A stretch of DNA of 62,349 nt from a candidate division WOR-3 bacterium (lineage in GTDB: Bacteria; Hydrothermota; UBA3072), in contig JAGLZA010000033.1 of the NCBI GenBank assembly GCA_023131835.1, forward strand, positions 1 to 62,349, in the 5' to 3' direction. Shown here one piece after another: positions 14,807 to 56,672 of this stretch. The notes under the pieces are model-generated. The model was not told the origin of the DNA and did not search any database. It saw nothing but the letters and a program-made list of their open reading frames with translations. Both the position numbers and the translations under genes were made by a program. Numbering within the stretch: position 1 is the first letter of the stretch; each line of letters starts with the position of its first letter.

Positions 14807-17800
14807 TTATTTAAATTTTTTCTTCAAAACAGCTGCATGTATCACGGACTTTCTCGCAACATTACCACCTTGTGATGTAATTAGATCAAAAGTAGCTCCT
14901 TGTATATTATGTGGTCTAACATATCCACTACTGTTGAATAATACAGGATCACCTTCACCTTCCATTTCTTTTTCTACAACTCTGGCTCCATATGCAGCCA
15001 ACAATAAAGCTGAATATAAATCTTTTTTTTGTCCTTTTTGTGGGGTATCAAAATGTAAAATTCCAGTAGACGTTTGAGTAACTATGATATTAAGCATTTG
15101 TGACTTGAGTGTAGTAACAGTTGTGTAACTAGCAGCTTCGATATCTAAGGTTGACCCAATTGGTGGTTCTGGAAATAACAACTTTTTGTCTTCTAACATT
15201 GATTTAACCGTAAAATTGGCATCTGCAATCCACGCAGGATTAAAATATATTAGTTCTAAAATATGTGACCCAGAAAGGTGTCGATGATCATCATTTGTAC
15301 GATCTATAATTGGTGTTTTACCATTATATCCTTCTTCTAAAAGATCACAAACAGCTTTTCCACCGCCACCTTTATCCATAAAAATTCTAATCACATTTAA
15401 TTTATCACATAGATTTTGAATTATCTGTGTTAATTGTTGTGTTGTTTGTGTCCTCAATTCTAATACATTAACTATTTTATTTACAGTTCCAATCCTAAGA
15501 ATAACAATACCACAACTAGCTCTACCCCCCTGATTCGGATCCACCCCTATTATATACTGAGCTTTTGGATCACCACGCATCTCAATGGTAAATCCACTAT
15601 CAATAGAACAAGACTCTATTAATGATGCTTTAAAAAACCCTTCTGAATCAGAAACCATTTCAGCTTCATATTCCATTCTAAATTCTGAACTCGACATAAC
15701 GCGTTTTGCTTCATCAACATTGTTCTGATCGAGAAACCCTTCTGGTAGATCCCAATAAGGCACTTGCCATACTGCATATTGACCTTCAATCCCCTCTTTT
15801 TCAGCCAAGTCTTCTTGAAGCCAGTGGTCTTTCATTCGCTTCCACATATGGTTAAATTTATAAAACCCTGAACTAGTCATAATCATTTTGTTAACTGATT
15901 CTTGTTCAAAATCATCTTCTGATGCCAGTCCTAAACTAATAAGATGTGTTTTTTGTTCTAAACGCCTTACACGTTCCATGGGCGCCAATGAAGTAGCACC
16001 CATAGGCATTAAGACTGTATCTATAATTTTAGGCGGCATTTGTGCAAATTCATCTATCAATACTAAATAAAAACGGGAGCCACGGATTTTACTACCGTCT
16101 GCTCCCAATGGAAGTGCTTCTATATAAGATGGGGTCATACCACCCACAGATTTAAATCTAAGATAACATACGTCTGAACCTCTAGTTGGTGGTTTGTCAC
16201 AAGCTTCTCTTAAGATTGAAGATTGGGCATAAAGTTTTTCCACCTCAGCAAAAATCATTTTTGAGTTGTGTGAAATCATACCATTTGACCAATAACAAGA
16301 TTCGTTTTCTACCTCAACATCAATTGTTGGAGCAAAAAAATACTTTGATTCTACCATTTTGACAAACGATAAATCTAGATCTATTATTTTTTTTAATTTG
16401 TAATAATCTTCTGTTAAAATGTTATATTTTTCTGCTAATTCTATACTATATTTAATTTTCTTTACTGTTACAATATGTGTTCTATTACAACTACGTATTA
16501 ATTTACCTATGTCTAATATACCCGTAGATATACTAATAAAATAATCTTTACACACCGTTAATAACCCTTTTACTGCCATCGCAGTATATGGTACACCATC
16601 AGTAGCCGTTTTACTACCTTCAACACTTTTTAAATAAATATTTAATTTATCAAACTTTCTTTCACATCTGAATCCTATTTCATCTCTAAACTTATTCAAA
16701 TTTAGTAATCCCGTTATTCTTACTTTGTAGGCTTCAGCACATTTTGACTTTTTAATTCTACCAATTAAACATTTATGTTCTGCTTTTTTACTTATACCTA
16801 AATTCGACATTATACCAAAATTAAGAAAACAAGCTTGTACCTCTTTTGCTAATTGTAAAGAGGAGGTATTGAGTGCAACTTCACAATGAACTGCTCCGTT
16901 ACGATAATGTTGAATATAAACATGCCCGTCTGTATCTAAAAGTCCAATTAAAAATTCTTTTACACATTCTTGTGATGCCTTCTTAATAACATCTGGTATC
17001 TTTTTATCTAAGGCTGTTGTTACAGTAAACCCACATTTTAATAGATAATAAGCAAGTTTCTTACGAAAATATTGAATTTCCCAAGTTTTGTTTTTTCTAT
17101 TCCTTCTATCTATATTTTCAGGATCATCAACAAAATACTCTATTAAATATCTTTCAAAAGAATCAAGCAAATCTTGATCTTCATTTACAAAATCAACACG
17201 GTATTTTCCAGTTACTTCATTTATACCAACATACCCATCTCCAATCATTAGCCCCATCCAGTATGCCAAATCCGGTGTTAATTCTCTTGGTATTTTACAA
17301 TCTTTTGTTCTCCAATCAATTTTGAATTCATTAAAGATTGGCATGGAATCATCATTACCAAAATACTTGAATCCTTTTTTAATTACAACGTGATCTTCTT
17401 TTGTTATATCTTGTAAATCTTTAAATATTAAATCCAATTTATCGTTTAAAATCAAAATTCCATGATCGACAGTTCCTGCTAACTCAAACCCTTTAGTTGT
17501 CTTTATACTTCTACAAGCCCGTTCTGGATTTTTCCATTTACTTAAAATAGTATTTTGAGACTCTAAAGATTGTATTTTTGTAACACCCTCTTCTACTGAA
17601 TCATAAAAATTTTGTGCTGTTGTTTGTAAACCGTCTGAAGTCCAAAAAATATCGTAAGTATTTGATATTACATCAGATATTACGTGGCTTTGCCTGAAAA
17701 CTGGAGCTAGTAGCCCGACCCTGTAGCCAGGACGCAGCATACAGCTCAAAGACGCTAGAACCCCTAGTAGATACGTTTTCCCACCGCCCCTACCACAGAT

Positions 17801-17977
17801 TGCCATCACATAATTCTTAAACCAAAAATCCTCAAAGATAAGTCGTTGAATAGGGGCTAAATCCACACCTAATAAATCATATGCCGCTATACATGGATTC
17901 TGCAAATAGAAATTAATTAACTCACTACCCGCCTCTAAAACCTCTCTATATTTTCTCTTTTCAGTCTGATGACTCAT
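14807..17977 (-). CDS. terL: Terminase large subunit, interrupted by an intein
   Basis: Walker A GRGGGKT, Walker B LVLIDE, RNase H-like nuclease motifs IIGVDP, MDKGGGG and KDLYSA. Confidence 0.92.
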   Translation of the reverse strand: MSHQTEKRKYREVLEAGSELINFYLQNPCIAAYDLLGVDLAPIQRLIFEDFWFKNYVMAICGRGGGKTYLLGVLASLSCMLRPGYRVGLLAPVFRQSHVISDVISNTYDIFWTSDGLQTTAQNFYDSVEEGVTKIQSLESQNTILSKWKNPERACRSIKTTKGFELAGTVDHGILILNDKLDLIFKDLQDITKEDHVVIKKGFKYFGNDDSMPIFNEFKIDWRTKDCKIPRELTPDLAYWMGLMIGDGYVGINEVTGKYRVDFVNEDQDLLDSFERYLIEYFVDDPENIDRRNRKNKTWEIQYFRKKLAYYLLKCGFTVTTALDKKIPDVIKKASQECVKEFLIGLLDTDGHVYIQHYRNGAVHCEVALNTSSLQLAKEVQACFLNFGIMSNLGISKKAEHKCLIGRIKKSKCAEAYKVRITGLLNLNKFRDEIGFRCERKFDKLNIYLKSVEGSKTATDGVPYTAMAVKGLLTVCKDYFISISTGILDIGKLIRSCNRTHIVTVKKIKYSIELAEKYNILTEDYYKLKKIIDLDLSFVKMVESKYFFAPTIDVEVENESCYWSNGMISHNSKMIFAEVEKLYAQSSILREACDKPPTRGSDVCYLRFKSVGGMTPSYIEALPLGADGSKIRGSRFYLVLIDEFAQMPPKIIDTVLMPMGATSLAPMERVRRLEQKTHLISLGLASEDDFEQESVNKMIMTSSGFYKFNHMWKRMKDHWLQEDLAEKEGIEGQYAVWQVPYWDLPEGFLDQNNVDEAKRVMSSSEFRMEYEAEMVSDSEGFFKASLIESCSIDSGFTIEMRGDPKAQYIIGVDPNQGGRASCGIVILRIGTVNKIVNVLELRTQTTQQLTQIIQNLCDKLNVIRIFMDKGGGGKAVCDLLEEGYNGKTPIIDRTNDDHRHLSGSHILELIYFNPAWIADANFTVKSMLEDKKLLFPEPPIGSTLDIEAASYTTVTTLKSQMLNIIVTQTSTGILHFDTPQKGQKKDLYSALLLAAYGARVVEKEMEGEGDPVLFNSSGYVRPHNIQGATFDLITSQGGNVARKSVIHAAVLKKKFK
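16265..17689 (-). mobile_element. Intein (475 aa) with LAGLIDADG homing endonuclease in TerL
   Basis: Removing it restores APVFRQ|SKMIF. Ser1, block B TVDH, LAGLIDADG-like MGLMIGDG and IGLLDTDG, C-terminal ISHN followed by Ser+1. Confidence 0.9.
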
Positions 17978-18584: not shown

Positions 18585-19016
18585 CTAATTCAAAGAATCA
18601 AAAACTTCATCTACATCCAAATTATTTTCTTCACAAAATTCTTTAAACAACACTAACAACTCTGGTGTTATTGAATGACCAAAACTTTCTATGTTGTGTC
18701 CACATACAATCTCAATTCTGGTTTTATTCTTCATAGATCTTTCAGTTAAAATATCCATAGATGCATCTAAAGTATCTTGAATTTTACATATCCAATCACA
18801 TAATACAACATCTTCAATATTATAATACCTATCAATAAGCTCTTCAGATAAAGGGTTTTTTCTTCGAAAATACATTAATAACGAACGTGATATTTTATCC
18901 TTTGTAATCTCTTTATGCTTTTGACCTAACTTAGATTGACTTATAGATCTTTTACTATCATCACTTAGTCTAAACCCTAATGGTCTTCCTCGTTTCCCAC
19001 TACCTTTACCAGTCAC
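18585..19016 (-). CDS. DNA-binding protein with AT-hook-like and NUMOD3-like motifs
   Basis: KRGRP and SDDSKRSISQSKLGQKHKEITKDKIS. Confidence 0.55.
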   Translation of the reverse strand: MTGKGSGKRGRPLGFRLSDDSKRSISQSKLGQKHKEITKDKISRSLLMYFRRKNPLSEELIDRYYNIEDVVLCDWICKIQDTLDASMDILTERSMKNKTRIEIVCGHNIESFGHSITPELLVLFKEFCEENNLDVDEVFDSLN

Positions 19017-23255: not shown

Positions 23256-23786
23256 TCATACAACATTTATAATTTCATAAATAGCTTCATTACACGCTCT
23301 AAGCAACTCTGGATACTTACTAACAACTGTTCTATAATCATCATTATTATCTATGAAAAAAGGCTCCAAGATAATACATGGAGCTTTTGTATATCGCAAA
23401 ATATATCCTCCCCTCCCTTCTGTAGATTTCCCTTTCATTCCACGATCTTTTAAACCGAGAGCATTTACTATCTTGGCCTGGAAAATGGAAGCCATTTTTT
23501 TACCTTTTTTTGATTTGTAATAATAAAGTGTTTCCGTTCCTGTTGTTTTATTATCAAACGCATTAGCATGAAAACATATCACAAAATCTGGATTTAATGC
23601 ATTAATCTTTTCTGGTAAATCTCTATATCGATCTCTATATACAATTTTAATTTCACAACGATCGTCTGTCAAAGTTTCTATCTGATTAACAAGCATAGAG
23701 TTGAAACCCCATTCACATACACCACAAAGATCATTACACGCACCAGGACTCTTTTTCTTATGTCCAACTACAAGTGCAATTTTCAT
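23256..23786 (-). CDS. N-acetylmuramoyl-L-alanine amidase (Amidase_3 endolysin)
   Basis: VGH...E, FHANA, GTETLY, ILEPFFIDN. Confidence 0.9.
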   Translation of the reverse strand: MKIALVVGHKKKSPGACNDLCGVCEWGFNSMLVNQIETLTDDRCEIKIVYRDRYRDLPEKINALNPDFVICFHANAFDNKTTGTETLYYYKSKKGKKMASIFQAKIVNALGLKDRGMKGKSTEGRGGYILRYTKAPCIILEPFFIDNNDDYRTVVSKYPELLRACNEAIYEIINVV

Positions 23787-23862
23787 ACAATTTCCTCCTA
23801 TATTTATAGTAGGTTAGATTAATACATTAAATCTTTTTAGTTTTCTTCGACAAATAAAAACT

Positions 23863-24132
23863 CTAATTGTTTCTATATTTTAATACCATAATCAATAGTA
23901 TCAAAGATATGATTGCTGGACCCAAATAAATCCAGAACAAATATATATTATTAGTCAGAATGTGACCTACTTCAAAAGCCAAGTATGCACAACAGTTTAG
24001 ATATACATAAAATAAAGACAAATCTTTTGCTTTTTGAGACCGATAAATCTTCACTACCTGTGGTATTAAATCAACAAACCATATTAAAGCTGCAATCAAT
24101 AAAACAAAATGGCCTATTGTATTGATATTCAC
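23863..24132 (-). CDS. PQ-loop / SemiSWEET-like membrane protein
   Basis: IPQVVKIYRSQKAKDLS and three TM segments. Confidence 0.8.
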   Translation of the reverse strand: MNINTIGHFVLLIAALIWFVDLIPQVVKIYRSQKAKDLSLFYVYLNCCAYLAFEVGHILTNNIYLFWIYLGPAIISLILLIMVLKYRNN

Positions 24133-24188: not shown

Positions 24189-25187
24189 CTACATCATTGC
24201 GGCTAAAAGAGCCCCCTTCGCTGTTGCTCTTAGAGGATCTTCTGCTCTCATTACTTTACCTATCTCTATCGGAAAATCAGTAGTTTTGAGAGCTTCATTA
24301 AACATCTGTACAAATCCTTTTGCCAGTGTTAAACCACCGGCTAACACTATTGGCATAGGCTCTCTAAATAAAGGTAATTCCTTTTTTCTTACCTTTAATT
24401 CATGTGCAATAGTTTTAATGGTATAGTTAAGAACAGATCGATAATAAACTGAAACAGCCTTCATAATTATTGTTGAAGGACTGTAAAGATCTGTTCCGGC
24501 TTCTTTTTCTGTCTGTACAAGGCTAGGAGAAATATCTAAAGCTTTCCCAACAGCCTCATCAACATAATCCCCTGCTTTTTGTAAAGAAAATTGAAGTATA
24601 GGGTCACCTTCATGTATAATTGCCATATTACAAAGACCTGCACCATATGTAACAATTCCCCCAGTTAACCCAGAATCAATTAATTCTGACAAGGCTACGG
24701 CAAAAGCTTCATTTATTGGTGTCGTTTCAAATCCCATCTGTTTTAAATATAACCCCAACATTTCTTTATGATAAATTATATCAAAATTTCCATCAATAGG
24801 TGCTGACGGAATAGAAAAAACACATTTATCCCCTTCCTTTCCTTCACCAATTAATGACTTTATAATAAGTTTTAATATTGGCAAAGATGCTTTTTCTTTG
24901 GGAGAAATTACTCCTTTTACCATAGGTCTTTCTACGACATCGTTTCTTTCGATCGCTATATCCAAAGAATCTTGTCCTATTATAACGAAAGACCCATCTT
25001 CATCTTCGATATAATTTACTTTTCTCTTGTCCAAAGACATCTTAATACTGCTCTTATTCACTTTAGTCTTTGGTTTAATCTTGTAAAAACAATCACGTTG
25101 ATTTTTAAATATTGAATCACCACCATCTTCAGATATTCCTGTGATCAACATATTTGTTCCCAAATCTAATCCGACAAATTTACTCAT
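24189..25187 (-). CDS. Actin-family ATPase, volactin-like
   Basis: GLDLGT (phosphate 1), RPMVKGVI, INEAFA, YGAG (phosphate 2), AGD, LAGG, ATAKGAL. Confidence 0.85.
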   Translation of the reverse strand: MSKFVGLDLGTNMLITGISEDGGDSIFKNQRDCFYKIKPKTKVNKSSIKMSLDKRKVNYIEDEDGSFVIIGQDSLDIAIERNDVVERPMVKGVISPKEKASLPILKLIIKSLIGEGKEGDKCVFSIPSAPIDGNFDIIYHKEMLGLYLKQMGFETTPINEAFAVALSELIDSGLTGGIVTYGAGLCNMAIIHEGDPILQFSLQKAGDYVDEAVGKALDISPSLVQTEKEAGTDLYSPSTIIMKAVSVYYRSVLNYTIKTIAHELKVRKKELPLFREPMPIVLAGGLTLAKGFVQMFNEALKTTDFPIEIGKVMRAEDPLRATAKGALLAAMM

Positions 25188-27815: not shown

Positions 27816-27947
27816 TTATCTCCATAATAATAGTAATGTTATTATACATCCAAACAATATAACAAACAATATAGATGTTGGAATAACATATTCTTTATCT
27901 TTCTCAATATATTTATTTATTAAATATTTTAAATTAAGTATTTTCAT
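27816..27947 (-). CDS. Small membrane peptide (43 aa)
   Basis: Manual translation MKILNLKYLINKYIEKDKEYVIPTSILFVILFGCIITLLLLWR fills the gap. Confidence 0.45.
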   Translation of the reverse strand: MKILNLKYLINKYIEKDKEYVIPTSILFVILFGCIITLLLLWR

Positions 27948-28701
27948 AAAATATATTTCTATTAGTTAAAATTATTGGTCCTTCATTAGTAATTGCGATT
28001 GTATGTTCAAAATGAGCTGCCATATCACCATTTTTAGTTAACACAGTCCAACCATCACTTCCCGTAATTGTTTCTGCGTTTCCAGCAACAACCATTGGTT
28101 CTATGGCTATTACCATTCCATTTTTTAATAAATAACCTTCTCCTTTATTACCAAAGTTATATACTGGAGGTTCTTCATGTAAATTTTTACCGATTCCATG
28201 TCCAGTAAAATTTTTAACTACATTAAAACCTTCTTTTTCTGCACACTGTTGAATAGTATAGGAAATATCACCTATTGTATTTCCTGAATGGCTTTGCTGT
28301 ATTGCAAGTGTTAGACATTCATTAGTAATTTTTATAAGTTTTTTATGTTTGTTTGATATTTTTCCAACAGGAATAGTTAATGCTGAATCTCCATACCATC
28401 CATTGTATAAAATACCAAAATCTATACTTAAAATATCCCCTTCTTTTAATGGTTTATCAGATGGAAATCCATGTACTACTTGTTCATTAACTGACGCACA
28501 TATAGAATATGGAAATCCCCTATAACCTTTAAATCCTGGTATAGCTCCCTTTTCGAAGGTCAATGTCTCTGCTAAACTATTTAAATAGTTGGTTGTAATA
28601 CCTGGTTTTACTTCTTTTTCCAAACAGGCTAAAACATACGCCACAATAGAGCAGCTTTTCTTTATTTCAAGTATATTTTGTATTCCATGTAAAATAATCA
28701 T
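27934..28701 (-). CDS. map: Methionine aminopeptidase, type I
   Basis: CASVNEQVVHG, SIDFG, YGDSA, GHGIG...HEEP, AIEPM, AHFEHT. Confidence 0.95.
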   Translation of the reverse strand: MIILHGIQNILEIKKSCSIVAYVLACLEKEVKPGITTNYLNSLAETLTFEKGAIPGFKGYRGFPYSICASVNEQVVHGFPSDKPLKEGDILSIDFGILYNGWYGDSALTIPVGKISNKHKKLIKITNECLTLAIQQSHSGNTIGDISYTIQQCAEKEGFNVVKNFTGHGIGKNLHEEPPVYNFGNKGEGYLLKNGMVIAIEPMVVAGNAETITGSDGWTVLTKNGDMAAHFEHTIAITNEGPIILTNRNIFYENT

Positions 28702-31054: not shown

Positions 31055-32044
31055 CTATAAATTAATATCTAATAATTCAAATACATGCTCAATTCTATTA
31101 ATAACAGTAACTGTGTCAGAACCTGCAAAAAGTAATCCGCAAATTTCATTGTCCTCTGTCAAAATGGCTGATCCTGAATCTCCGCCTGCACTCATTGCTC
31201 CAGCCATTATTTGATCATTAAATTGTGCTATTTTTCCTTCCCCATATTGTACATTTACGCTTACATCAATTTGAGTAATTTCACCTTGAGTAAATTCTGT
31301 AGTGCGCCCACTTTTCTGAATATACGTGCCTAATATAGCCGATTTAACACCTACAATTTTACCAATTTCCATAATCTTATCACTAACATCTTCATCATTT
31401 AAAGGTCGGGCAATAGCCGCATCTACAAGATTTCCTGTAGTTTGTTTTATAGCTTGTAAACGAGTTTTGCGGCCTATTGCATATAAAATACTATTGATGA
31501 TTTTAGTGAATGCTCCGCCAATAGGACATTCAGAAGAAACACCTGTAAAATTAATTGGTACAAACATAGTTAAATCAGCGATGTGATCCGCAGGAAATAA
31601 TCCTGAATCATGAGTCCCTGGCTGAAGTATGGCATCACCAATTTCTGCATCATTAGAACAAGCAAGAACATGATTGTTTGACAGGATATGTCTAACACCA
31701 TTCTTTCTGACAACACACCCCAAAGTTCCGGCTGTAATATCAATATGTCCTACACTTACACCACCAGGAGCAGGTCTATGCTTGCTAGTATGTAAACTTT
31801 TAATTATACCGGTTTCGACTACATCAGTTTGTACACCCTTTAATACGGGTGGAATAAGATCTTTTTTACATAATTTAACAGTGGAAATCTTTTTATTTAC
31901 TGAACAAATTATAGACAATTCACTAGTTTGTTTATTATTTATTGTTTTGTACCCGATACCTGTTGCAACAACACCTTTTTTCTCAAAAAGAAATTCTTTC
32001 TTTCCATTTAACACCTGTTTTATTTGATTATAATTATATAACAA
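31055..32044 (-). CDS. Nal1-like trypsin-fold serine protease
   Basis: GTLG, SNNHV, LQPG, VDAAIA, KSGRTT, GDSGS, GLLFAG. Confidence 0.85.
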   Translation of the reverse strand: MLYNYNQIKQVLNGKKEFLFEKKGVVATGIGYKTINNKQTSELSIICSVNKKISTVKLCKKDLIPPVLKGVQTDVVETGIIKSLHTSKHRPAPGGVSVGHIDITAGTLGCVVRKNGVRHILSNNHVLACSNDAEIGDAILQPGTHDSGLFPADHIADLTMFVPINFTGVSSECPIGGAFTKIINSILYAIGRKTRLQAIKQTTGNLVDAAIARPLNDEDVSDKIMEIGKIVGVKSAILGTYIQKSGRTTEFTQGEITQIDVSVNVQYGEGKIAQFNDQIMAGAMSAGGDSGSAILTEDNEICGLLFAGSDTVTVINRIEHVFELLDINL

Positions 32045-36290: not shown

Positions 36291-36629
36291 TTATCCAATT
36301 TTAGTAGTTGTATCCCAAATTGTTAATTCCTTAATGGTCCTTTCAATCAATCCCTGTTCTTCTAAAAACCATGCATATAATATATCTTTACCATTTTTAC
36401 CATTGATAACACATTCTTCTAAAAGTGCAATTGCATTATTGGTTTCTAACATGTTTATGGTATCCTTTTCAATTAATTGTTGTGATTCCTCTTTATTCAA
36501 CATTTTGTAACATTTCTTACAATAAAATTTCCACTCACCTGTGTCAAAAATACCGTATAATTCCATTTTAGATTTACACTTTGGACACATTATATTTTTC
36601 ATACACCACTCAAAGAGTACAAATACCAA
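36291..36629 (-). CDS. Zinc-ribbon protein
   Basis: CPKC...CKKC; start probably at MKNIM. Confidence 0.55.
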   Translation of the reverse strand: MVFVLFEWCMKNIMCPKCKSKMELYGIFDTGEWKFYCKKCYKMLNKEESQQLIEKDTINMLETNNAIALLEECVINGKNGKDILYAWFLEEQGLIERTIKELTIWDTTTKIG

Positions 36630-36659
36630 GTATTTTATAAACCCAGCACAAAAATCTTC

Positions 36660-36972: not shown

Positions 36973-37707
36973 TTATTCTTCCTCCTTTTTGTTTACATAC
37001 CTGTAACCAGGTATTTGTTTTTTTAATCTTTTTCTTACAGTGTGTCTGGACATACCCAGAAAAATGCCCGCTTTTGTAAGCGAAGCAAAGTGTTTATTAT
37101 TTATTATTACTGCATCACTATTAGGTGGCTGATTGCCTTGTAATGATTCTGATATCTTTAACCTGGTTTTTTTAGACACTATGTGCCCTTTAAGTGTATT
37201 AGCTATTTTTTGTTTTGTCTCCTCTGATATTTTCTGTTCTTTTCTTGTTACTGACATCTTTTGTCTTGTTTCGGCAGAAGGATGTTTACCATATAAGTGA
37301 TGTTTTGGTCCTCTCTTCGATTCACTTATTTTCCGTTTAGTTTCTTCAGAATGTTTTCTTCCTGTTTGAGCTTTTGACATGTTTTCTTTTGTTTTTTTCG
37401 AAAGTTTACATCCAATTGTACCCTCACCGCCTTCAGTAAGATTATAACCATTTTCAAAAGTATTATGATAACCGATATAAAATATTTCTAATTTATTTAA
37501 ATAATTTATACTATTAATATTGTCATGTAGTATTTTCCATACAAAATTTTTCTGACCGTATTTTCTAATAGCATTGTAAAAATAACCGCTGCATCCCCCT
37601 ACCAAAGATTTCCAAATATGGGTTCTTTTACGCCGTTCTAAAGTAAGGGTGGTCTGCCCCACATACTGCTTACCATTAACCCTATTTGTAGCTATGTAAA
37701 TTAACAT
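36973..37707 (-). mobile_element. Free-standing GIY-YIG homing endonuclease with NUMOD3 repeats
   Basis: LIY...NGKQYVGQT, GYNLTEGG, repeated HSEETKRKIS motifs. Confidence 0.9.
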
Positions 37708-37715
37708 AATTTACC

Positions 37716-38126
37716 TTACCAACTAGGAGTACCAGGCACTGTAAAAATAAGCCAACCACAAGGTCCATTGTTATATTCAGCATACTCTTTATCAGACGAC
37801 AATGCCCAAACACTATATTCTCTAGTACCGTCTGTTTTGTTATTAAAGGCTCTTACTTGAATTTCAAAATGTCTGGATGATTTTGGTAAAGTATTAAAAG
37901 TATAAGTTGTATTAATTGTGTCAACTATGTCTGTTTCTAAACCAGTATAAAAATAATGCACTATTTTTAATTCATACCCGTCTACCTCACTGCCCGTCCA
38001 AGCTACCGTAAGAGGTTCATCCACTACCCTTCTTTCTATACAGCCACAAAAATTATCGGAAGCTACAGCTAAACTAGAAACCGTAATAAAAATTAACATA
38101 TAAATATAAATTATTATCTTTCTCAT
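37716..38126 (-). CDS. Signal-peptide protein with FN3-like domain
   Basis: Hydrophobic N-terminus; LTVAW...GYEL...FEIQVRAFN...YSVW. Confidence 0.65.
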   Translation of the reverse strand: MRKIIIYIYMLIFITVSSLAVASDNFCGCIERRVVDEPLTVAWTGSEVDGYELKIVHYFYTGLETDIVDTINTTYTFNTLPKSSRHFEIQVRAFNNKTDGTREYSVWALSSDKEYAEYNNGPCGWLIFTVPGTPSW

Positions 38127-38277
38127 TTGTACCTCACTAAATAAATCTTTTTAACACACATTTTTATTTATAGTATCTATCTATTACAGATGAATACCAA
38201 GAATTAAAAATATCATTACTATTGATAAACAACTTATCCGTAACATTATATTAATTCAAATTACTAAAACAGATAAT

Positions 38278-38478
38278 TTATTTTTGTCTACAGTAACCTT
38301 TCAATTTATGAACAACATCTAGTTCAACAGTGTGTACATGACCGTTTTTCAAAAGAAGAAGCCCGTAACTTGTGTCTCCGTCTGTCACAATTCTTGCTAC
38401 TTCAAGAATATTTAAATCTAATATTATAGGATCTAAATCTACTAAATCTGTATCATAAGAATTTACATTAAATGACAT
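38278..38478 (-). CDS. Hypothetical protein
   Basis: Start moved to MSFNV (GAGGT SD). Confidence 0.6.
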   Translation of the reverse strand: MSFNVNSYDTDLVDLDPIILDLNILEVARIVTDGDTSYGLLLLKNGHVHTVELDVVHKLKGYCRQK

Positions 38479-38511
38479 AATCCATACCTCGCTTAAATAT
38501 AACAAAATACT

Positions 38512-38620
38512 ACACGCTGACCCCAAGCAGCGGTGCTTTTTTTTACAATATTTATTGTTGCCAGACTCTGTAACATTTACAAAATTGGTTGCTTACCGAC
38601 TTGGGGCAGGTAAGCTAAAC
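38512..38620. ncRNA. Intergenic pair of hairpins with complementary loops (CCCCAAG / CTTGGGG)
   Basis: CGCTG-ACCCCAAG-CAGCG and GCTTACC-GACTTGGGGCA-GGTAAGC. Confidence 0.4.
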
Positions 38621-38626
38621 GTTATC

Positions 38627-38809
38627 TTATAAATAAATAACTCTATTCATTTTTTCATAATCTGGAGTATCATCTTTAATACCGTTACCACCGACAACAA
38701 AATTATGAAAAGGTAAATTAACCACAAGGCTATTTAGAAAGAGCGAATCATTTGTATTGTATTCCACAAGAAACTTGTCATCATTGTTTTCCTGCTTGTC
38801 TTGTTTCAT
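38627..38809 (-). CDS. Hypothetical protein
   Basis: GGAGGT SD. Confidence 0.55.
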   Translation of the reverse strand: MKQDKQENNDDKFLVEYNTNDSLFLNSLVVNLPFHNFVVGGNGIKDDTPDYEKMNRVIYL

Positions 38810-38917
38810 TTTTTAGTGACCTCCAGTTATCCTTAAGTCAACATGAAATAGTAATGGGAAAATCCCCTTCAACATCTCTCCTTTGTTCAAAAGATACTGA
38901 GTAATAAGGAGGAGGTC

Positions 38918-39010
38918 ATGGCTATAATTATTGACATCCTCGGTTTATTAATTGCTTTAGTTGGTTTGTTCTTAGCCATCAGGCAAGAGATCAAATCACC
39001 GAGAAAATAA
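38918..39010 (+). CDS. 30-aa hydrophobic peptide, type I toxin-like
   Basis: TAAGGAGGAGG SD; MAIIIDILGLLIALVGLFLAIRQEIKSPRK. The only plausible + strand gene in a 45-kb - strand block. Confidence 0.75.
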   Translation: MAIIIDILGLLIALVGLFLAIRQEIKSPRK

Positions 39011-39022
39011 TAAACATTGAAA

Positions 39023-39078
39023 GTTTATGTGACCTGGTGTTACGGCACTAGGTCATGTAAACGACTTCCTCCTTAGTA
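39023..39078 (+). promoter_or_regulatory. Long hairpin plus anti-SD tail downstream of the peptide gene
   Basis: 17-bp stem with three G-U pairs on +, then GACTTCCTCCTTA complementary to TAAGGAGGAGGTC. Confidence 0.65.
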
Positions 39079-39117
39079 AATAGTATTAAATTGCCCAACC
39101 AGCCACTCAGCTTTACG

Positions 39118-39333
39118 TTATATTTTTTCAACAAGTTCATATTGTTTAAAGATAGATGGTATCTTTTTTATACCATTAACTAATTCAGGAGATTTTATAA
39201 ACTCTACTTTTACTTTAGCACATTTTCCTGCTTCTATTATAAGTTCAAATTTTGTAACACCTTTATCATCTAATCCAAAAGCTTTTAAGAAGTCTTCTGG
39301 TAAATCGGCTGCGTGTAACATTTCATTATTCAT
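39118..39333 (-). CDS. Hypothetical protein
   Basis: GAGGTGA SD. Confidence 0.6.
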   Translation of the reverse strand: MNNEMLHAADLPEDFLKAFGLDDKGVTKFELIIEAGKCAKVKVEFIKSPELVNGIKKIPSIFKQYELVEKI

Positions 39334-39398
39334 TTTTCACCTCGGAGGTAATGATGAACACTTATAAATTTTATAAAACAAAATTGGTCATTATATTT

Positions 39399-40229
39399 TT
39401 ACTCTTCACCGTCCCTACTCATATCAATGGCCATCATTTTCTCATCTCGTTCCCGTTTGTCTTTTCTTTCTTTTTCACAATCTTTAGATGTAATGTTTAA
39501 ATCATAAATGAATGTGAATAATTGATCTTCTAGAAACTTATAAATAGACATAATGGGTATAAAATAAGATAAATGTGTAATGGCATCAGAAGAAAAACCG
39601 CTTATTGAAACTGCGACCCTTGAAGGGACACCTATAAATTCATAAGTTTCACCTAAAAATACAGCTCCACCTGAATTACCAAAAATTGTAGCAGCACTTG
39701 ACAAAAAATATGGATAATTATCAATAATATCATTAAAACCAGTTAAATTACCTTGAGTAGCAAGCGGTGGATGACCAAGACCACAACCAACAGCATAAAG
39801 ATCCATAAACATTCTTAATTTTTCTTTATGTTGCCCTTTAGGAAACATTGTTGCTACATAATCAATTTTTCTTTCTGTTTTAAGTCTTAACAGTGCTAAA
39901 TCCATGTCTTTATCATAACACATAATCTCGCTTCTGTATGTACTTTGCCCACTTTCCCATGATCCATATTCAAAATTAAAAAATTCAACAGAACATTCAG
40001 ACAAAATATCTGTTTTTACTTCCCTCTTTAAAAGAGTACTCCATTTCTTTTCAACCTTAATGTTAGCACTAACTACATGACAATTAGTTAAAACATAGGT
40101 TTCGTATTTACTGTCTTCCCCGGGCAATAATTTTGAATAAACAACTGTTCCAGAGCCCCCTGCCTGATCCGTTCTCACCCTTACTGTGGGGTAAAGCATT
40201 TTTTCGTGTTTATCTTCTAACATAGACAT
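39399..40229 (-). CDS. Trypsin-like serine protease
   Basis: GSG, LTNCHV, DLALL, GNSGG. Confidence 0.9.
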   Translation of the reverse strand: MSMLEDKHEKMLYPTVRVRTDQAGGSGTVVYSKLLPGEDSKYETYVLTNCHVVSANIKVEKKWSTLLKREVKTDILSECSVEFFNFEYGSWESGQSTYRSEIMCYDKDMDLALLRLKTERKIDYVATMFPKGQHKEKLRMFMDLYAVGCGLGHPPLATQGNLTGFNDIIDNYPYFLSSAATIFGNSGGAVFLGETYEFIGVPSRVAVSISGFSSDAITHLSYFIPIMSIYKFLEDQLFTFIYDLNITSKDCEKERKDKRERDEKMMAIDMSRDGEE

Positions 40230-40249
40230 AATTTTTTTAACTCCTCCTT

Positions 40250-40873
40250 TTACTTGTTTGATTTAAAAAAAGATATATTTGTATGTAAAAATTCTTTGAT
40301 TCCTTCTGCTGTTTTCTTTTCTTTTAAATACATTTTCACCCCCTTAGGTTTTAATACTAAGATTCTGCCGCCAATTTTTGTTCCATTATATAGACTGTTA
40401 AATCCGTAAAGTAGTAATTCCTCTATAAAACTTAAATTCTTTTTATTCAACAATTCAGTTTTAAAACTAAGATCAAAAGAAGCTCCTTCATCATTATCGT
40501 CATCATTATCATTATTGTTATCTGATTTTTCATCATCAACATAGTTTTTAAATTCTGTAACAAATAAGAATTTAGTATGTGAAGGATGTTTTTTTGCCAC
40601 CTTAATTACATTTCTCATAGTATAAATATAGTTTAGAATACCAACCATATCAATATAATGAACAAAAACTGATTCTATTAAAAATTCTTTAAGACCTCTT
40701 ATTACTGTATCATCATCAACGTGATCACTGAGTTCGGTAAGATATACTTCAAGAAAGTAATCAATAACGTCCTTTTGGTCCCTCGTAATTATATCGGCTG
40801 CTTTAGCATCTAATTCTGTAATTATTAAATAAAGACCTTTTTCTTTTCTTAATGATTTTAATATTTTTATCAT
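40250..40873 (-). CDS. Hypothetical protein with acidic D/N tract
   Basis: 207-aa ORF preceded by the CTAACCT motif. Confidence 0.6.
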   Translation of the reverse strand: MIKILKSLRKEKGLYLIITELDAKAADIITRDQKDVIDYFLEVYLTELSDHVDDDTVIRGLKEFLIESVFVHYIDMVGILNYIYTMRNVIKVAKKHPSHTKFLFVTEFKNYVDDEKSDNNNDNDDDNDEGASFDLSFKTELLNKKNLSFIEELLLYGFNSLYNGTKIGGRILVLKPKGVKMYLKEKKTAEGIKEFLHTNISFFKSNK

Positions 40874-43522: not shown

Positions 43523-44062
43523 CTATAATTTTTCTATAATAAATGGAGACCGTACTCCTGCAGAAAACTCAGCTGCAGCTTCTAATGCTTTGGTTATTCT
43601 TTCTTTCGGTTTCATTTTAAAACTGTTTAAACTATGTAGTGCACCCATTGCTATATCTGCACCACAACCAACGGCTTCGTAATTAAGTGTTGGTTTAGCT
43701 ACTTGTAAATCACTTTCTACTTCATATAAATTTCCTTTATAACCAACTAAGAAAAATCCGATACTTATTTTGTTATCAGAAACTTTAGCATATTTTTTCT
43801 TTTCTAACATTTTTGATACAGCATCAATAAAATCTGTACACATATATTCATAGTCATCTTTTTTTCTTGGTTGTTCTGGAATTTTTAACGAATATTGAAG
43901 TAATTGACCGAGTCTAAAAGACGAAGTGAATCCAAAAAGCATTTCTCCGTTTTTGAATACCTTACTATCAGCTCTTGTCCGTATCTTTAATCCACCAACT
44001 CCAGCAGAATCTCCACCCATCCAAACTTTGTCATTTTCTACCCAACCAACTATACATGTCAT
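43523..44062 (-). CDS. HslV / proteasome-beta-like Ntn hydrolase
   Basis: M-TCIVG (N-terminal Thr nucleophile), GDS, SKVF, AVGCG...AMGAL. Confidence 0.8.
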   Translation of the reverse strand: MTCIVGWVENDKVWMGGDSAGVGGLKIRTRADSKVFKNGEMLFGFTSSFRLGQLLQYSLKIPEQPRKKDDYEYMCTDFIDAVSKMLEKKKYAKVSDNKISIGFFLVGYKGNLYEVESDLQVAKPTLNYEAVGCGADIAMGALHSLNSFKMKPKERITKALEAAAEFSAGVRSPFIIEKL

Positions 44063-51529: not shown

Positions 51530-52009
51530 ATGAATACAATATCAATATTTAAAGGTAAGTATAATTTTCTTAGCAACTTTTTCACATTAGAAGTACCAAT
51601 AGCATATAATGGTATATCTTATCCAACAGTTGAGCATTTCTATCAAGCCATGAAAAGTTTAGGCCCAACAGATCCAGGAGCCTTAAATCCAGTTGACCGT
51701 ATAATAATAGCAGGTGATTCAAGTCCCTTTATGGCAAGAAACTTTGGGCGCACTATACGGCTAAGGCCCGATTGGGAAAATGCTAAAATTTCAGTAATGA
51801 GACTCGGGCTAATATTAAAGTTTGCAGCTAATCCTGAACTCAAAACTCAATTACTGAGCACCTGGGAAAGTGTACTTGTAGAAGGAAATCATTGGCATGA
51901 TAATATATGGGGTAATTGCATGTGCCCAAAATGTGCCAATACAAAAGGTCAGAATCTTCTCGGATATCTTCTGATGGAGGTAAGAGAATTATTTAGGTTG
52001 ATAAAATAA
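51530..52009 (+). CDS. NADAR (YbiA/DUF1768) family protein
   Basis: FLSNF, YPTVEHFYQAMK, RPDW, KF..NPEL, LVEGN.W.D..WG, GQNLLG.LLM. Confidence 0.92.
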   Translation: MNTISIFKGKYNFLSNFFTLEVPIAYNGISYPTVEHFYQAMKSLGPTDPGALNPVDRIIIAGDSSPFMARNFGRTIRLRPDWENAKISVMRLGLILKFAANPELKTQLLSTWESVLVEGNHWHDNIWGNCMCPKCANTKGQNLLGYLLMEVRELFRLIK

Positions 52010-55579: not shown

Positions 55580-56026
55580 ATGGTTGATAAATTCAAAATC
55601 ACCTGTCCAAAATGTAAAGAAACTACAACTAGCATACAAGCAACTGTCATCAACGAAAAAATAAGAGTAAAATTCGTTTGTTTACTCTGTGGTTATGTAT
55701 CTGAAGCTATAATTGTGGATGGATTAAAGAAATTAAAATCAGGAGATATCTGGTGGAATGAATTTGAAATAGATGGAAAAAAATATCGAAAAATCGGAAG
55801 ACAAGAGATAATTGAAGAAGGGGGTATGCATTCCTGGTACGGTAGTAAATTACACCCTATACGGAACCCAGAAACAATTGGTGATGTTCCTGCCAACTTT
55901 TCAGATGACAGAGAATTCTATAATCCCATAAGAGAGGAAGAAAACAACGGTTACACTCTAGGCACTTTACTTAGAAATGCAATTGAAAGTGAAAGAAAAA
56001 CAGACAAAGGAGAAAAGGATGTTTAA
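55580..56026 (+). CDS. Zinc-ribbon protein
   Basis: CPKC...CLLC; AAGGAG SD. Confidence 0.65.
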   Translation: MVDKFKITCPKCKETTTSIQATVINEKIRVKFVCLLCGYVSEAIIVDGLKKLKSGDIWWNEFEIDGKKYRKIGRQEIIEEGGMHSWYGSKLHPIRNPETIGDVPANFSDDREFYNPIREEENNGYTLGTLLRNAIESERKTDKGEKDV

Positions 56027-56672
56027 CATACTTATAGGCAACAAAACAAAAAAGGCCATGAAAGTGTTAGGCATCGAGTCTTTTCCATTTACTGAATCTG
56101 AACTAAAATCCAAATTTAGAAAACTCGCTAACATTCACCATCCAGATAAGTCAAATGGTGATGACTCTCTCATGAAAAAAATTAATGCAGCCTACTCACA
56201 TATAAAATACCTTGCTATCGGTGATACTGAAATCAGAGAAAAAGGTAAGGACATACTAAAAGCTGAGCAGGAAAATGAAGACATGTTTGAATTTTTTGAA
56301 TCTTGTAAAAGATGTGATGGTAATGGAGAAATAACTCACTATTACGAAGCCTATACAGATTTATGTGACAGATGTATGGAACGTTCTTCTTCACTCTTTT
56401 CCTTTAAAAGTTTCCCCATAGGAAAAATCAAAGTAAAATGTAGAGATTGCCGAGGCACTGGCAAATTCAAACAAAGAAGCGGTAGAACAGTTACTTGCCG
56501 CCAATGCAAAGGACTAGGCTGGCTATCCATAAAATGTCCAAAATGCAAAGGGACTGGGAGAATTCTTATTAAAGCTCGCACTACAAGAAGAATGTGTTGG
56601 TATTGTGGTGGTAGCGGAAAAATCAAATTAAACCCATTTAATCCGGTAATACCAAAAGGAGGAATCTTATGA
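56019..56672 (+). CDS. DnaJ-like protein (J-domain plus CxxCxGxG zinc fingers)
   Basis: HHPDK; CKRCDGNG, CRDCRGTG, CRQCKGLG, CPKCKGTG, CWYCGGSG. Start moved to MFNIL. Confidence 0.88.
   Translation: MFNILIGNKTKKAMKVLGIESFPFTESELKSKFRKLANIHHPDKSNGDDSLMKKINAAYSHIKYLAIGDTEIREKGKDILKAEQENEDMFEFFESCKRCDGNGEITHYYEAYTDLCDRCMERSSSLFSFKSFPIGKIKVKCRDCRGTGKFKQRSGRTVTCRQCKGLGWLSIKCPKCKGTGRILIKARTTRRMCWYCGGSGKIKLNPFNPVIPKGGIL

What the first reader, a model, noticed from the sequence alone, without database searches (positions are those of the whole stretch)
38860..39080. Hidden type I toxin-like cassette with a 3' fold-back over its own SD and start codon
Seen: a 30-aa peptide gene (38918-39010, +) missed by the ORF track and oriented against 45 kb of - strand genes. 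It has a very strong SD, one TM helix and a basic tail. After it comes a 17-bp hairpin whose three G-U pairs work only on the + strand RNA, then ACGACTTCCTCCTTAGTA (39061-39078), which is complementary to TAATAAGGAGGAGGTCAT. A second pyrimidine tract CTCTCCTT lies just upstream of the SD. Established: SD sequestration by 5' and 3' anti-SD elements is characteristic of type I toxin mRNAs such as hok and aapA. Inference: a phage-borne type I TA, addiction or superinfection-exclusion module. The - strand operon transcript crossing the locus could itself be the antitoxin.
Basis: partly seen in the sequence, partly recalled or inferred. Interest (0 to 1): 0.78.

Follow-up and report, generated by a model that had tools for sequence, protein, structure and literature searches.

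The report
Hidden toxin-like mini-gene in phage
A tiny gene for a 30-residue membrane peptide sits backwards inside a phage operon, and its RNA folds so that its own tail hides its ribosome-binding site, as in RNA-controlled 'type I' toxins; it has no known relatives and no expression data, so its function remains a prediction.

Summary
A 30-codon ORF (38918-39010, +) with an AAGGAGGAGG ribosome-binding site lies in a 308-nt gap between - strand genes of a jumbo-phage-like contig. An 18-bp hairpin follows it. A 3' tract then pairs with the SD (13 bp, plus a 7-bp outer helix).

The + strand RNA folds far better than shuffles (z -6.4) and 18 kcal/mol better than the - strand. All 7 non-Watson-Crick pairs in the two main helices are G-U on the + strand.

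The SD is predicted fully paired. No annotated gene start in the window (0 of 91) has as strong a partner, and 0 of 2948 random + strand segments match the 3' tract. Three rare codons (5-8) form a back-up anti-SD.

This matches the hok/aapA design: an inert full-length mRNA that could be activated by 3' trimming.

No promoter, terminator or separate antitoxin gene was found. Every sequence, profile and pattern search found no relative, so conservation could not be tested. No RNA data exist.

Verdict: a credible orphan candidate for a new type I toxin-like family in an environmental phage. Confidence 0.45, interest moderate.

The parts
38849..38850 (.). Left edge of the cassette module: breakpoint of similarity in co-occurring strain variants
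   Evidence: in runs X9 and X10, contigs carrying 38826 G>A and 38832 C>A match the window up to 38849/38850. In X9 the contig then continues for 154 unlike letters. In X5, 4 differences fall in 38744-38845 and none in 38846-39101.
38874..38883 (+). Upstream pyrimidine tract (aSD1, contains CTCTCCTT) that can pair with the SD in short nascent RNAs
   Evidence: fold of 38866-38930 gives SD unpaired probability 0.12. Not statistically unusual: p=0.17 against 2951 random + strand segments.
38893..38899 (+). 5' arm of the outer 7-bp helix (pairs with 39081-39087; two G-U pairs)
   Evidence: MFE pair list.
38905..38917 (+). Shine-Dalgarno region (core AAGGAGGAGG 38906-38915); 5' arm of the 13-bp long-distance helix
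   Evidence: Unpaired probability is 0.00-0.006 per base in the full-length RNA.
38918..39010 (+). 30-codon ORF: hydrophobic helix (residues 2-21) with a basic tail (net +3)
   Evidence: ORF list; best 17-residue Kyte-Doolittle mean is 2.93. Codon log-odds is ambiguous.
38932..38941 (+). Internal anti-SD (aSD2) in codons 5-8; pairs with 38909-38918 when the 3' tail is absent
   Evidence: folds ending at 38945-39062. It is made by minor codons GAC/ATC/CTC, with synonymous shares 0.16/0.11/0.03. Duplex energy is -15.0, p=0.036.
39023..39062 (+). 18-bp hairpin with a UACG loop and four G-U pairs; proposed barrier to 3' exonucleases
   Evidence: -25.8 kcal/mol on + against -15.3 on -. No T-run follows on either strand.
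39063..39075 (+). 3' anti-SD (aSD3), directly abutting the hairpin; 3' arm of the 13-bp long-distance helix
   Evidence: SD unpaired probability drops to 0.00 once the 3' end passes 39075. Duplex energy is -22.8; 0 of 2948 random segments and 0 of 91 gene starts are as strong.
39081..39087 (+). 3' arm of the outer 7-bp helix

Best explanation
This is an orphan, self-contained small-gene cassette on the + strand (about 38850-39088), embedded antisense in a phage operon. It encodes a 30-residue single-pass membrane peptide with a basic tail. Its mRNA is built to be translationally silent, in the manner of hok- and aapA-type type I toxin mRNAs.

Shown in silico: in the full-length RNA the SD is locked in a 13-bp (+7-bp) 5'-3' long-distance helix. 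The partner is an anti-SD placed immediately behind an 18-bp hairpin. During synthesis the SD can be held by an anti-SD in codons 5-8 and by the hairpin's 5' arm.

Inferred:
1. 3'-to-5' trimming up to the hairpin removes the anti-SD and leaves only the weaker internal pairing, so ribosomes can load.
2. The peptide inserts into the membrane and harms or depolarises the cell.
3. The antisense partner is most likely the - strand operon transcript reading through the locus. It would give a long duplex open to RNase III, so peptide synthesis would be tied to the state of phage transcription.

Whether it serves lysis timing, exclusion of competitors or addiction is not decided.
For: - Structure: the + strand fold has z -6.44, with 0 of 200 shuffles as good.
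- Strand: the core cassette folds at -72.7 (+) against -54.3 (-) kcal/mol. The hairpin and long-distance helices have 38 pairs, 7 of them G-U and none mismatched, so all 7 become C-A on the - strand.
- Uniqueness among gaps: of the 28 intergenic gaps folded, this one has the lowest + strand energy per nt (-0.263; next -0.192) and the lowest + strand z (-4.7; next -2.8). Most other gaps fold better on - (30 mononucleotide shuffles each).
- SD occlusion: SD unpaired probability is 0.10/0.14/0.17/0.12/0.00 at five transcript lengths. The medians for 58 annotated SD-bearing genes are 0.50-0.59, and only 2 of 58 are below 0.25 at all five lengths.
- Partners: the SD segment has stronger partners upstream, inside the ORF and downstream than any of 91 gene starts (0 of 91 in each). 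With the SD fixed, the downstream partner has p=0 of 2948 and the internal one p=0.036.
- Codons: the internal anti-SD is built from three consecutive minor codons.
- Order of pairing: stepwise folding gives successive SD-sequestering structures, then the long-distance helix. This is the scheme shown for aapA3 (PMC6733600, passages read) and aapA1, a 30-aa toxin whose mRNA is activated by 3' processing (PMC5416894, passages read).
- ORF features: strong SD, ATG, one TM helix, basic tail.
- No other such cassette turned up in 412 kb of related loci and low-GC contigs.
Against: - No sigma-70-like promoter lies just upstream of the ORF. The nearest + strand match is at 38558-38585, and matches were fewer than chance overall (2 against 5.4 expected). 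No intrinsic terminator follows the cassette.
- No separate antisense RNA gene was recognised.
- No homolog was found anywhere, so there is no covariation or dN/dS test.
- The codon-usage score (2.98) falls between real genes (8.2 +/- 3.9) and spurious ORFs (-3.2 +/- 5.1).
- Hydrophobic ORFs are expected on a T-rich strand.
- The upstream anti-SD is not unusual (p=0.17).
- Assembly-wide, the SD duplex is only in the top 1.5% (24th of 1617).
- The - strand RNA also folds well (z -4.9), and it has a small hairpin of its own at about 38860-38885 that depends on G-U pairs (-5.5 against -1.2 on +).
- Strain variants carry no differences inside the cassette, but the expected number was under one.
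Confidence: 0.45

Rival explanations
1. A real but non-toxic small membrane protein gene. It could be a moron-like accessory gene, for example a regulatory or superinfection-exclusion peptide. SD occlusion would then only tune or delay its expression, and there would be no toxin-antitoxin logic.
For: The ORF and RNA features are the same as for the main reading. The only profile hints are sub-threshold ones to small regulatory membrane peptides: NCBIfam MgtR, E 0.073, 13.1 bits against a cutoff of 35, and Pfam TMEM238, E 0.2. No antitoxin gene was found.
Against: Complete, multi-layered SD sequestration is described as a hallmark of type I toxin mRNAs (PMC6733600). It is matched by none of the 91 annotated genes here. 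The profile hints are far below threshold.
Confidence: 0.15
2. A non-coding structured + strand RNA, acting as a cis-antisense regulator of the operon or as a phage sRNA. The SD-ATG-ORF would be fortuitous.
For: + strand-specific structure. The codon score is not gene-like. The peptide has no homolog. A 30-codon open frame has roughly a 0.1 chance in this base composition (my estimate from base frequencies).
Against: The long-distance helix sits exactly on a near-perfect SD with an ATG at proper spacing. By my estimate from the composition, only about 2-3 GGAGG are expected by chance on the + strand of the 45-kb - block. The back-up pairing also targets the SD rather than any other part of the RNA.
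Confidence: 0.15
3. The structure serves the - strand operon mRNA (processing site, stabiliser, weak terminator) or acts as a DNA palindrome. The purine tract at 39074-39066 would then be a - strand SD (it is followed by a two-codon ATG-ACC-TAG), and the + strand gene-like features would be by-products.
For: The - strand is certainly the transcribed sense strand of the block. Its RNA here also folds with z -4.9. A strong SD-like AAGGAGGAAG exists on the - strand. A small - strand-specific hairpin lies at about 38860-38885.
Against: All 7 non-Watson-Crick pairs of the two main helices are G-U on +, with no A-C and no transversion mismatches. The - strand version is 18 kcal/mol weaker. In most of the other 27 gaps, by contrast, the - strand folds better. 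No usable ORF follows the - strand SD. No T-run follows the hairpin on -.
Confidence: 0.15
4. Chance or relic: a recombination scar in a hypervariable region, with an accidental inverted repeat of SD-like sequence.
For: The region is mosaic. Neighbouring genes are orphans too. The + strand is rich in CCTCC-like complements of - strand SDs, which makes partial anti-SDs common (upstream p=0.17).
Against: Fold z -6.4. 0 of 2948 random segments match the 3' partner. The one-sided G-U pattern. The hairpin abuts the anti-SD exactly.
Confidence: 0.1

Closest known systems
aapA/IsoA type I toxin-antitoxin modules of Helicobacter pylori (aapA1, aapA3)
   Same: - A 30-aa hydrophobic peptide with a basic C-terminus.
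- A full-length mRNA made inert by a 5'-3' long-distance interaction in which a 3' anti-SD traps the SD.
- Earlier SD-sequestering hairpins using an upstream anti-SD and one inside the ORF.
- Activation by loss of the last ~25-30 nt.
(PMC5416894 and PMC6733600, passages read.) Here the corresponding elements are predicted at 38874-83, 38932-41 and 39063-75.
   Different: - I ran no direct sequence comparison with AapA. There is no AapA-type hit in Pfam or NCBIfam.
- No IsoA-like antisense gene with its own promoter was found.
- The cassette lies in a phage operon gap, not a bacterial chromosome.
- The upstream anti-SD is not statistically supported.
- Nothing here has been tested experimentally.
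hok/sok of plasmid R1 and its homologs, including those in phages and prophages
   Same: - A small membrane toxin whose stable mRNA is held inactive by pairing of its 5' and 3' ends and needs 3' processing. The fold-back mechanism is recalled knowledge; the long-distance interaction and metastable hairpin are mentioned in PMC6733600.
- Phage carriage is documented: Hok homologs were reported in 3852 prophages and 2501 phages (bioRxiv 10.1101/2025.08.07.668861, passages read).
   Different: - No Hok (PF01848) match.
- A mok-like overlapping leader frame was not looked for.
- The peptide is 30 aa.
- The host lineage and habitat (a cold-seep phage) are unrelated to enterobacteria.
Prophage-borne type I systems of Firmicutes (bsrG/SR4, yonT/SR6 on SPbeta; Clostridioides difficile modules in prophages and next to CRISPR arrays)
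   Same: Small hydrophobic toxins carried on phage-derived DNA and controlled by overlapping antisense RNA (PMC5848175, PMC6563280, PMC5961336: abstracts in the search listing only).
   Different: Those systems have a mapped antitoxin RNA with its own promoter, usually overlapping the toxin's 3' end; none is evident here. There is also no sequence match. The only link is an Atlas lead: a cluster in which 29% of members carry Hol_Tox scored 0.81, below the level the tool calls meaningful.

Membership tests
Type I toxin-antitoxin system (generic) | Small (<60 aa) hydrophobic, membrane-targeted toxin ORF | tested here: met
   30 aa. Best 17-residue hydropathy mean is 2.93. The tail RQEIKSPRK has net charge +3.
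Type I toxin-antitoxin system (generic) | Non-translatable primary transcript with the SD occluded by an anti-SD (called a major hallmark in PMC6733600) | tested here: met
   In silico only. SD unpaired probability is 0.00 in the full-length RNA. 0 of 91 gene starts and 0 of 2948 random segments pair as well.
Type I toxin-antitoxin system (generic) | An antisense RNA antitoxin (cis or trans) that blocks translation or triggers decay | tested here: inconclusive
   No promoter-like site on the - strand within the cassette and no terminator between the upstream - strand gene and the cassette. Operon read-through could therefore supply antisense RNA, but no discrete antitoxin was found. No trans-complementary stretch elsewhere in the assembly looked meaningful.
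Type I toxin-antitoxin system (generic) | Own promoter for the toxin mRNA | tested here: inconclusive
   The scan found none directly upstream. By eye there is only an 8-of-12 match: TCAACA 38869-74, an 18-nt spacer, then GATACT 38893-98. The host's promoter consensus is unknown.
Type I toxin-antitoxin system (generic) | Toxicity of the peptide and rescue by the antitoxin | not testable with these tools
   Needs expression assays.
Known type I toxin protein families (Hok, Fst/Ldr, Ibs, ShoB, TisB, Hol_Tox and others held in Pfam/NCBIfam) | Sequence match to the family profile | tested here: not met
   Pfam at E<=10 gave only TMEM238 (E 0.2). NCBIfam gave only MgtR (E 0.073, below cutoff). PHROGs and PADLOC gave nothing. 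PDB gave nothing. phmmer against 1.84 billion representatives gave 0 hits.
aapA/IsoA-like or hok-like regulatory architecture | A 5'-3' long-distance interaction trapping the SD, removable by 3' truncation | tested here: met
   Predicted helices 38905-17/39063-75 and 38893-99/39081-87. Truncation at 39062-39065 raises SD accessibility from 0.00 to 0.14-0.35, depending on the assumed 5' end. The RNA ends are unknown.
aapA/IsoA-like or hok-like regulatory architecture | Conservation or covariation of the helices in homologs | not testable with these tools
   No homolog was found. The other copies are near-identical strains with 0 differences in 38846-39101.

The most novel reading that the evidence does not exclude
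A jumbo-type phage of an uncultured cold-seep bacterium carries a new, independently evolved type I toxin family with a hok/aapA-style 3' fold-back. It has no dedicated antitoxin gene. The phage's own operon transcript, read through the locus, is the antisense antidote. The cassette would then work as an RNA timer or dead-man switch: it releases a membrane-damaging peptide only when transcription of that operon stops, whether at late infection, after abortive infection or after takeover by a competing phage.
Probability: 0.12. Interest if true: 0.7.

Novelty: new member of a known kind. Interest (0 to 1): 0.42.

Why it matters
[quoted passage not shown] They have been reported from few phyla (PMC12390103, passages read). 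Their carriage by phages is documented mainly for hok (bioRxiv 10.1101/2025.08.07.668861).

If this cassette is real, three things follow:
- The long-distance 'fold-back plus 3' trimming' design would have arisen again, in an unrelated peptide family, in an environmental phage.
- It would support searching for such genes by RNA architecture rather than by homology.
- It would give a compact test case for an operon transcript serving as the antitoxin.

If it is not real, it shows how convincing an SD-like inverted repeat can look on the antisense strand of an SD-rich operon.

Tried and rejected
Homology searches. All were negative:
- Megablast of 38000-40300 against phage records: no match.
- 12 IMG/VR loci sharing the neighbouring protease at 46-72% identity: 0 of 12 have the peptide, the region or any of the 11 other flanking proteins.
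- Two-arm DNA pattern in viral contigs: 0.
- The 71-aa and 60-aa neighbours in viral contigs: 0. The 71-aa neighbour in metagenome contigs: 0.
- Degenerate pattern for residues 6-17 in metagenome, genome and viral contigs: 0 each.
- Hairpin pattern in genome contigs: 0.
- phmmer against 1.84 billion representatives: 0 hits. A 30-aa query can only detect close relatives.
- tblastn and blastn against phage records: nothing meaningful.
- Six-frame search of 272 genomes of the assembly's phylum: best E 0.039 per genome, not significant over 272 genomes. The reciprocal search was also weak (E 0.32).
- Five related virus records: none.
- No paralog in the assembly.
- Rfam: no family at gathering score in the window, and only chance-level hits locally.
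- ESM Atlas: best score 0.83, below the meaningful level.

Expression: no RNA holder listed among the public runs, so expression could not be examined.

Read-laying: runs X7 and X10 had little or no cover of the cassette. SNP density gives no evidence of special constraint; fewer than one difference was expected in the 239 nt.

Promoters: k-mer enrichment in 40 intergenic regions recovered only SD motifs.

Other leads:
- A 20-nt exact match to 38857-38876 on contig C315 lies inside an unrelated host gene in another frame. I set it aside as probably fortuitous.
- MITE-like element: rejected, because no target-site duplication flanks the inverted repeat (by eye).
- TAG-readthrough reading of the - strand mini-ORF: rejected, because long ORFs are intact under code 11.
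- Earlier findings of this scan held nothing bearing on this locus.

Full report
WHAT IS THERE

The window is one whole 62,349-bp contig of a 537-contig assembly. All long ORFs from 3 to 45272 run on the - strand, and a + strand block starts near 46.6 kb. The contig is viral:
- major head protein, large terminase, ClpP-like head protease, dNMP kinase and a GIY-YIG homing endonuclease;
- an Amidase_3 endolysin.

The assembly it was binned with is bacterial, with 7 sigma-70-family matches. Its GC is 39% against 32% for the contig. The closest IMG/VR relative with a long record (92,464 bp) is rated 35% complete. These are therefore probably fragments of jumbo-sized phages; I did not test this further.

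The finding lies in the longest but one of 28 intergenic gaps of at least 60 nt in the - block (38810-39117, 308 nt). It sits between a 71-aa and a 60-aa orphan gene.

- ORF 38918-39010 (+) encodes MAIIIDILGLLIALVGLFLAIRQEIKSPRK. It follows AAGGAGGAGG (38906-15).
- RNAfold places an 18-bp hairpin at 39023-40/39045-62.
- Directly abutting it, 39063-75 pairs with 38905-17 (13 bp).
- An outer helix joins 38893-99 to 39081-87 (7 bp).

IS IT MORE THAN CHANCE?

- Region 38850-39090 (+) folds at -76.7 kcal/mol, against -48.5 +/- 4.4 for 200 dinucleotide shuffles (z -6.44).
- The SD/start segment's best duplex with downstream sequence (-22.8) is the strongest of 53 GGAGG+start sites in the window. It is 24th of 1617 across the 3.9-Mb assembly, where the stronger cases sit in GC-richer DNA.
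- I compared it with all 91 annotated gene starts in the window. None has as strong a partner for its SD segment upstream (-11.2), inside the first 60 nt of the ORF (-15.0) or downstream (-22.8); the count is 0 of 91 in each.
- This SD is unusually long and purine-rich, so I also held it fixed and paired it with random + strand segments. The 3' partner was never matched (0 of 2948). The internal one is marginal (p=0.036). The upstream tract is ordinary (p=0.17).

The 3' fold-back is solid.

WHICH STRAND?

- The core cassette (38890-39090) folds at -72.7 on + and -54.3 on -. The hairpin alone is -25.8 against -15.3.
- The hairpin and the two long-distance helices contain 38 pairs. Seven are G-U on +, and there are no mismatches. 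All seven become C-A on the - strand.
- If mismatches fell on either strand at random, 7 to 0 has a two-sided p of about 0.016 (my arithmetic).
- Base composition works against this result. In the other 27 gaps the - strand usually folds better. The + strand is lower in only 4 of 27, and by at most 2.2 kcal/mol.
- This gap has the lowest + strand energy per nt and the lowest + strand z of all 28 (30 mononucleotide shuffles each).

The structure therefore looks selected in a + strand RNA. Two cautions apply. The - strand still folds with z -4.9. It also has one small G-U-dependent hairpin of its own at about 38860-38885.

HOW THE RNA WOULD BEHAVE

- In the full-length RNA the SD is unpaired with probability 0.00.
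- Folding 5' fragments of growing length shows the SD held successively by four partners: the upstream tract, a 9-bp pairing with 38932-41 inside codons 5-8, briefly the 5' arm of the hairpin, and finally the 3' anti-SD once the 3' end passes 39075.
- RNAs ending at 39062-39065, just after the hairpin, have SD accessibility of 0.14-0.35, depending on the assumed 5' end.
- For 58 annotated genes with an SD, the median accessibility is 0.50-0.59 at the same five lengths, and only 2 of 58 stay below 0.25 throughout. The candidate gives 0.10, 0.14, 0.17, 0.12 and 0.00.
- The internal anti-SD is spelled by GAC-ATC-CTC. These are three consecutive minor codons, with synonymous shares 0.16, 0.11 and 0.03 in this phage. 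That would be expected if a coding sequence were bent to serve the structure.

IS THE ORF CODING?

In favour: a near-ideal SD and ATG, a 30-codon frame, one hydrophobic helix (17-residue hydropathy mean 2.93) and a basic tail.

Not decisive: the codon log-odds (2.98) lies between real 30-codon windows (8.2 +/- 3.9, n=849) and spurious frames (-3.2 +/- 5.1, n=627). About 10% of each distribution lies beyond it. A T-rich strand also yields hydrophobic frames by default.

WHAT IS MISSING

- The consensus scan finds no sigma-70-like promoter just upstream. The only + strand sites are at 38558-85 and 39370-97, and the total (2) is below the 5.4 expected from shuffles. It finds no terminator after the cassette, and no - strand promoter or terminator within it.
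- By eye there is only an 8-of-12 match: TCAACA, an 18-nt spacer, then GATACT at 38869-98.
- K-mer enrichment over 40 intergenic regions recovered SD motifs only.
- The hairpin has no T-run on either strand, so it is not an intrinsic terminator.

RELATIVES

None were found; the searches are listed under Tried and rejected. The neighbouring trypsin-like protease has 12 IMG/VR relatives (46-72% identity). In 0 of 12 are the peptide, the cassette or any other of the 11 flanking proteins present. The surrounding region is therefore hypervariable.

Public runs labelled cold-seep metagenome hold the phage: 8 runs with at least half of the sampled words, from 4 studies, one of which may be the source. 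In run X5 a contig spans 38666-40500 with 9 differences, none of them between 38846 and 39101. That is not informative, because fewer than one was expected there.

The same call does show a module boundary. In X9 and X10, contigs match up to 38849/50. In X9 the contig then continues for 154 unlike letters. X5's differences cluster in 38744-38845. The 60-aa gene with its leader thus travels separately from what lies to its right. This places the cassette's left edge at about 38850.

MECHANISM

Most likely (0.45) this is a translationally silenced mRNA for a small membrane peptide that works like hok or aapA toxin mRNAs.

Shown, in silico only:
- the + strand-specific fold;
- total SD occlusion by a 3' anti-SD placed right behind a stable hairpin;
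- a back-up anti-SD in the ORF.

Inferred:
- 3' exonucleolytic trimming stops at the hairpin, frees the SD and allows translation;
- the peptide damages the membrane;
- the antisense partner is the - strand operon transcript, since nothing predicted stops it before the cassette;
- the resulting duplex is cleared by RNase III.

I cannot decide the biological role. A separate lysis pair exists elsewhere: a PQ-loop 89-aa membrane protein next to the Amidase_3 endolysin. This peptide is therefore not the obvious holin.

COMPARISON WITH KNOWN SYSTEMS

The closest in design are aapA1 and aapA3 of H. pylori:
- a 30-aa toxin;
- an inert 250-nt full-length mRNA with a 5'-3' long-distance interaction;
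- activation by loss of about 25-30 nt from the 3' end;
- two metastable SD-sequestering hairpins, one upstream and one in the ORF, before the final trap;
- an antisense RNA with RNase III decay.
(PMC5416894 and PMC6733600; passages read.)

hok/sok works likewise (partly recalled; mentioned). Hok homologs are reported in thousands of phages and prophages (bioRxiv 10.1101/2025.08.07.668861, passages). 'Phage-borne type I toxin' is therefore not new as a kind.

Membership in any known toxin family fails on sequence. Membership in 'type I TA' stays open, because neither an antitoxin nor toxicity has been shown. I therefore say it works like a type I toxin mRNA; I do not say it is a member of a named family.

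RIVALS

- A benign small membrane protein with tuned expression (0.15).
- A non-coding + strand RNA with a fortuitous ORF (0.15).
- A - strand mRNA or DNA-level element whose purine tract at 39074-66 is a - strand SD in front of a two-codon frame (0.15). The one-sided G-U pattern disfavours this.
- Chance or relic (0.10).

NOVELTY AND SCORE

If real, this is a new peptide family using a known regulatory design, in an environmental phage and with possibly no dedicated antitoxin gene: a new member of a known kind. The case rests on one orphan sequence with no expression data, so interest is moderate (0.42).

PAPERS

- Read as passages: PMC6733600, PMC5416894, PMC12390103 and bioRxiv 10.1101/2025.08.07.668861.
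- Seen only as search listings or abstract starts: PMC8621323, PMC5961336, PMC6563280, PMC5848175, PMC10537873.
- No supplements were opened.

Noticed in passing
window 38621-38849: The 60-aa gene (38627-38809, -) with about 40 nt of leader behaves as a separate mosaic module. Contigs in other runs match only this stretch and diverge on both sides: loose ends before 38621 in X5 and X9, and behind 38849 in X9.
   Followed up: partly
window 39048-39074 (- strand): On the - strand a strong SD-like AAGGAGGAAG is followed 11 nt later by a two-codon frame, ATG ACC TAG. The frame lies inside the hairpin. From memory, it resembles the two-codon 'minigenes' of lambda bar regions.
   Followed up: no
window 14807-17977 (-): The large terminase ORF is 1056 aa. 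Terminase matches sit at its two ends, and an endonuclease/helicase-like match covers residues ~231-427. This suggests an intein or an inserted homing-endonuclease domain.
   Followed up: no
window 24189-25187 (-): Strong match to the actin-like Volactin family (PF25216, E 1.5e-57), with a weak MreB match. It is a phage-encoded actin homolog, possibly cytoskeletal as in other large phages.
   Followed up: no
window 23256-24132 (-): Probable lysis pair: an Amidase_3 endolysin (23256-23786) next to an 89-aa PQ-loop membrane protein (23863-24132), which may be the holin.
   Followed up: no
window 27934-28701, 43523-44062, 55977-56672, 51530-52009, 31055-32044, 39399-40229: An unusual set of host-like protein-handling genes on one phage contig: M24 methionine aminopeptidase, HslV/proteasome-like peptidase, a DnaJ-like protein, a NADAR domain and two trypsin-like proteases. 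The protease next to the cassette also gives weak PADLOC hits to LmuA and RT-protease models.
   Followed up: no
window 36973-37707 (-): A GIY-YIG homing endonuclease (phrog_314, E 3.7e-42) lies 1.2 kb from the cassette. A second weak homing-endonuclease hit is at 18585-19016.
   Followed up: no
L015 600-1570 (genome G030, same phylum as the assembly): A CRISPR array has at least 9 copies of a 30-nt repeat with a period of 66-71 nt. About 300 nt beyond it lies an unannotated 26-aa hydrophobic ORF (1489-1569) with a strong SD and a GC-rich hairpin after it. This ORF is the best, though non-significant, hit of the window's peptide in 272 genomes. It recalls the type I toxins next to CRISPR arrays in C. 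difficile (PMC5961336, abstract only).
   Followed up: partly
assembly contigs C479 (~1330-1450, +) and C513 (~36500-36650, -): Two host contigs share a conserved hairpin in which a CGGAGGTTG...ATG segment pairs with CTACCTCCG about 45 nt downstream (duplex -31 to -35 kcal/mol). In C513 it sits just upstream of a gene that, judged by eye from its N-terminus, starts like an isopropylmalate dehydratase small subunit. It may be a repeated SD-sequestering leader.
   Followed up: no
window 38857-38876 and contig C315 6957-6976: A 20-nt exact match (BLAST E 7.6e-4) links the cassette's 5' leader to the inside of an unrelated host gene, in a different frame. It is probably fortuitous.
   Followed up: partly
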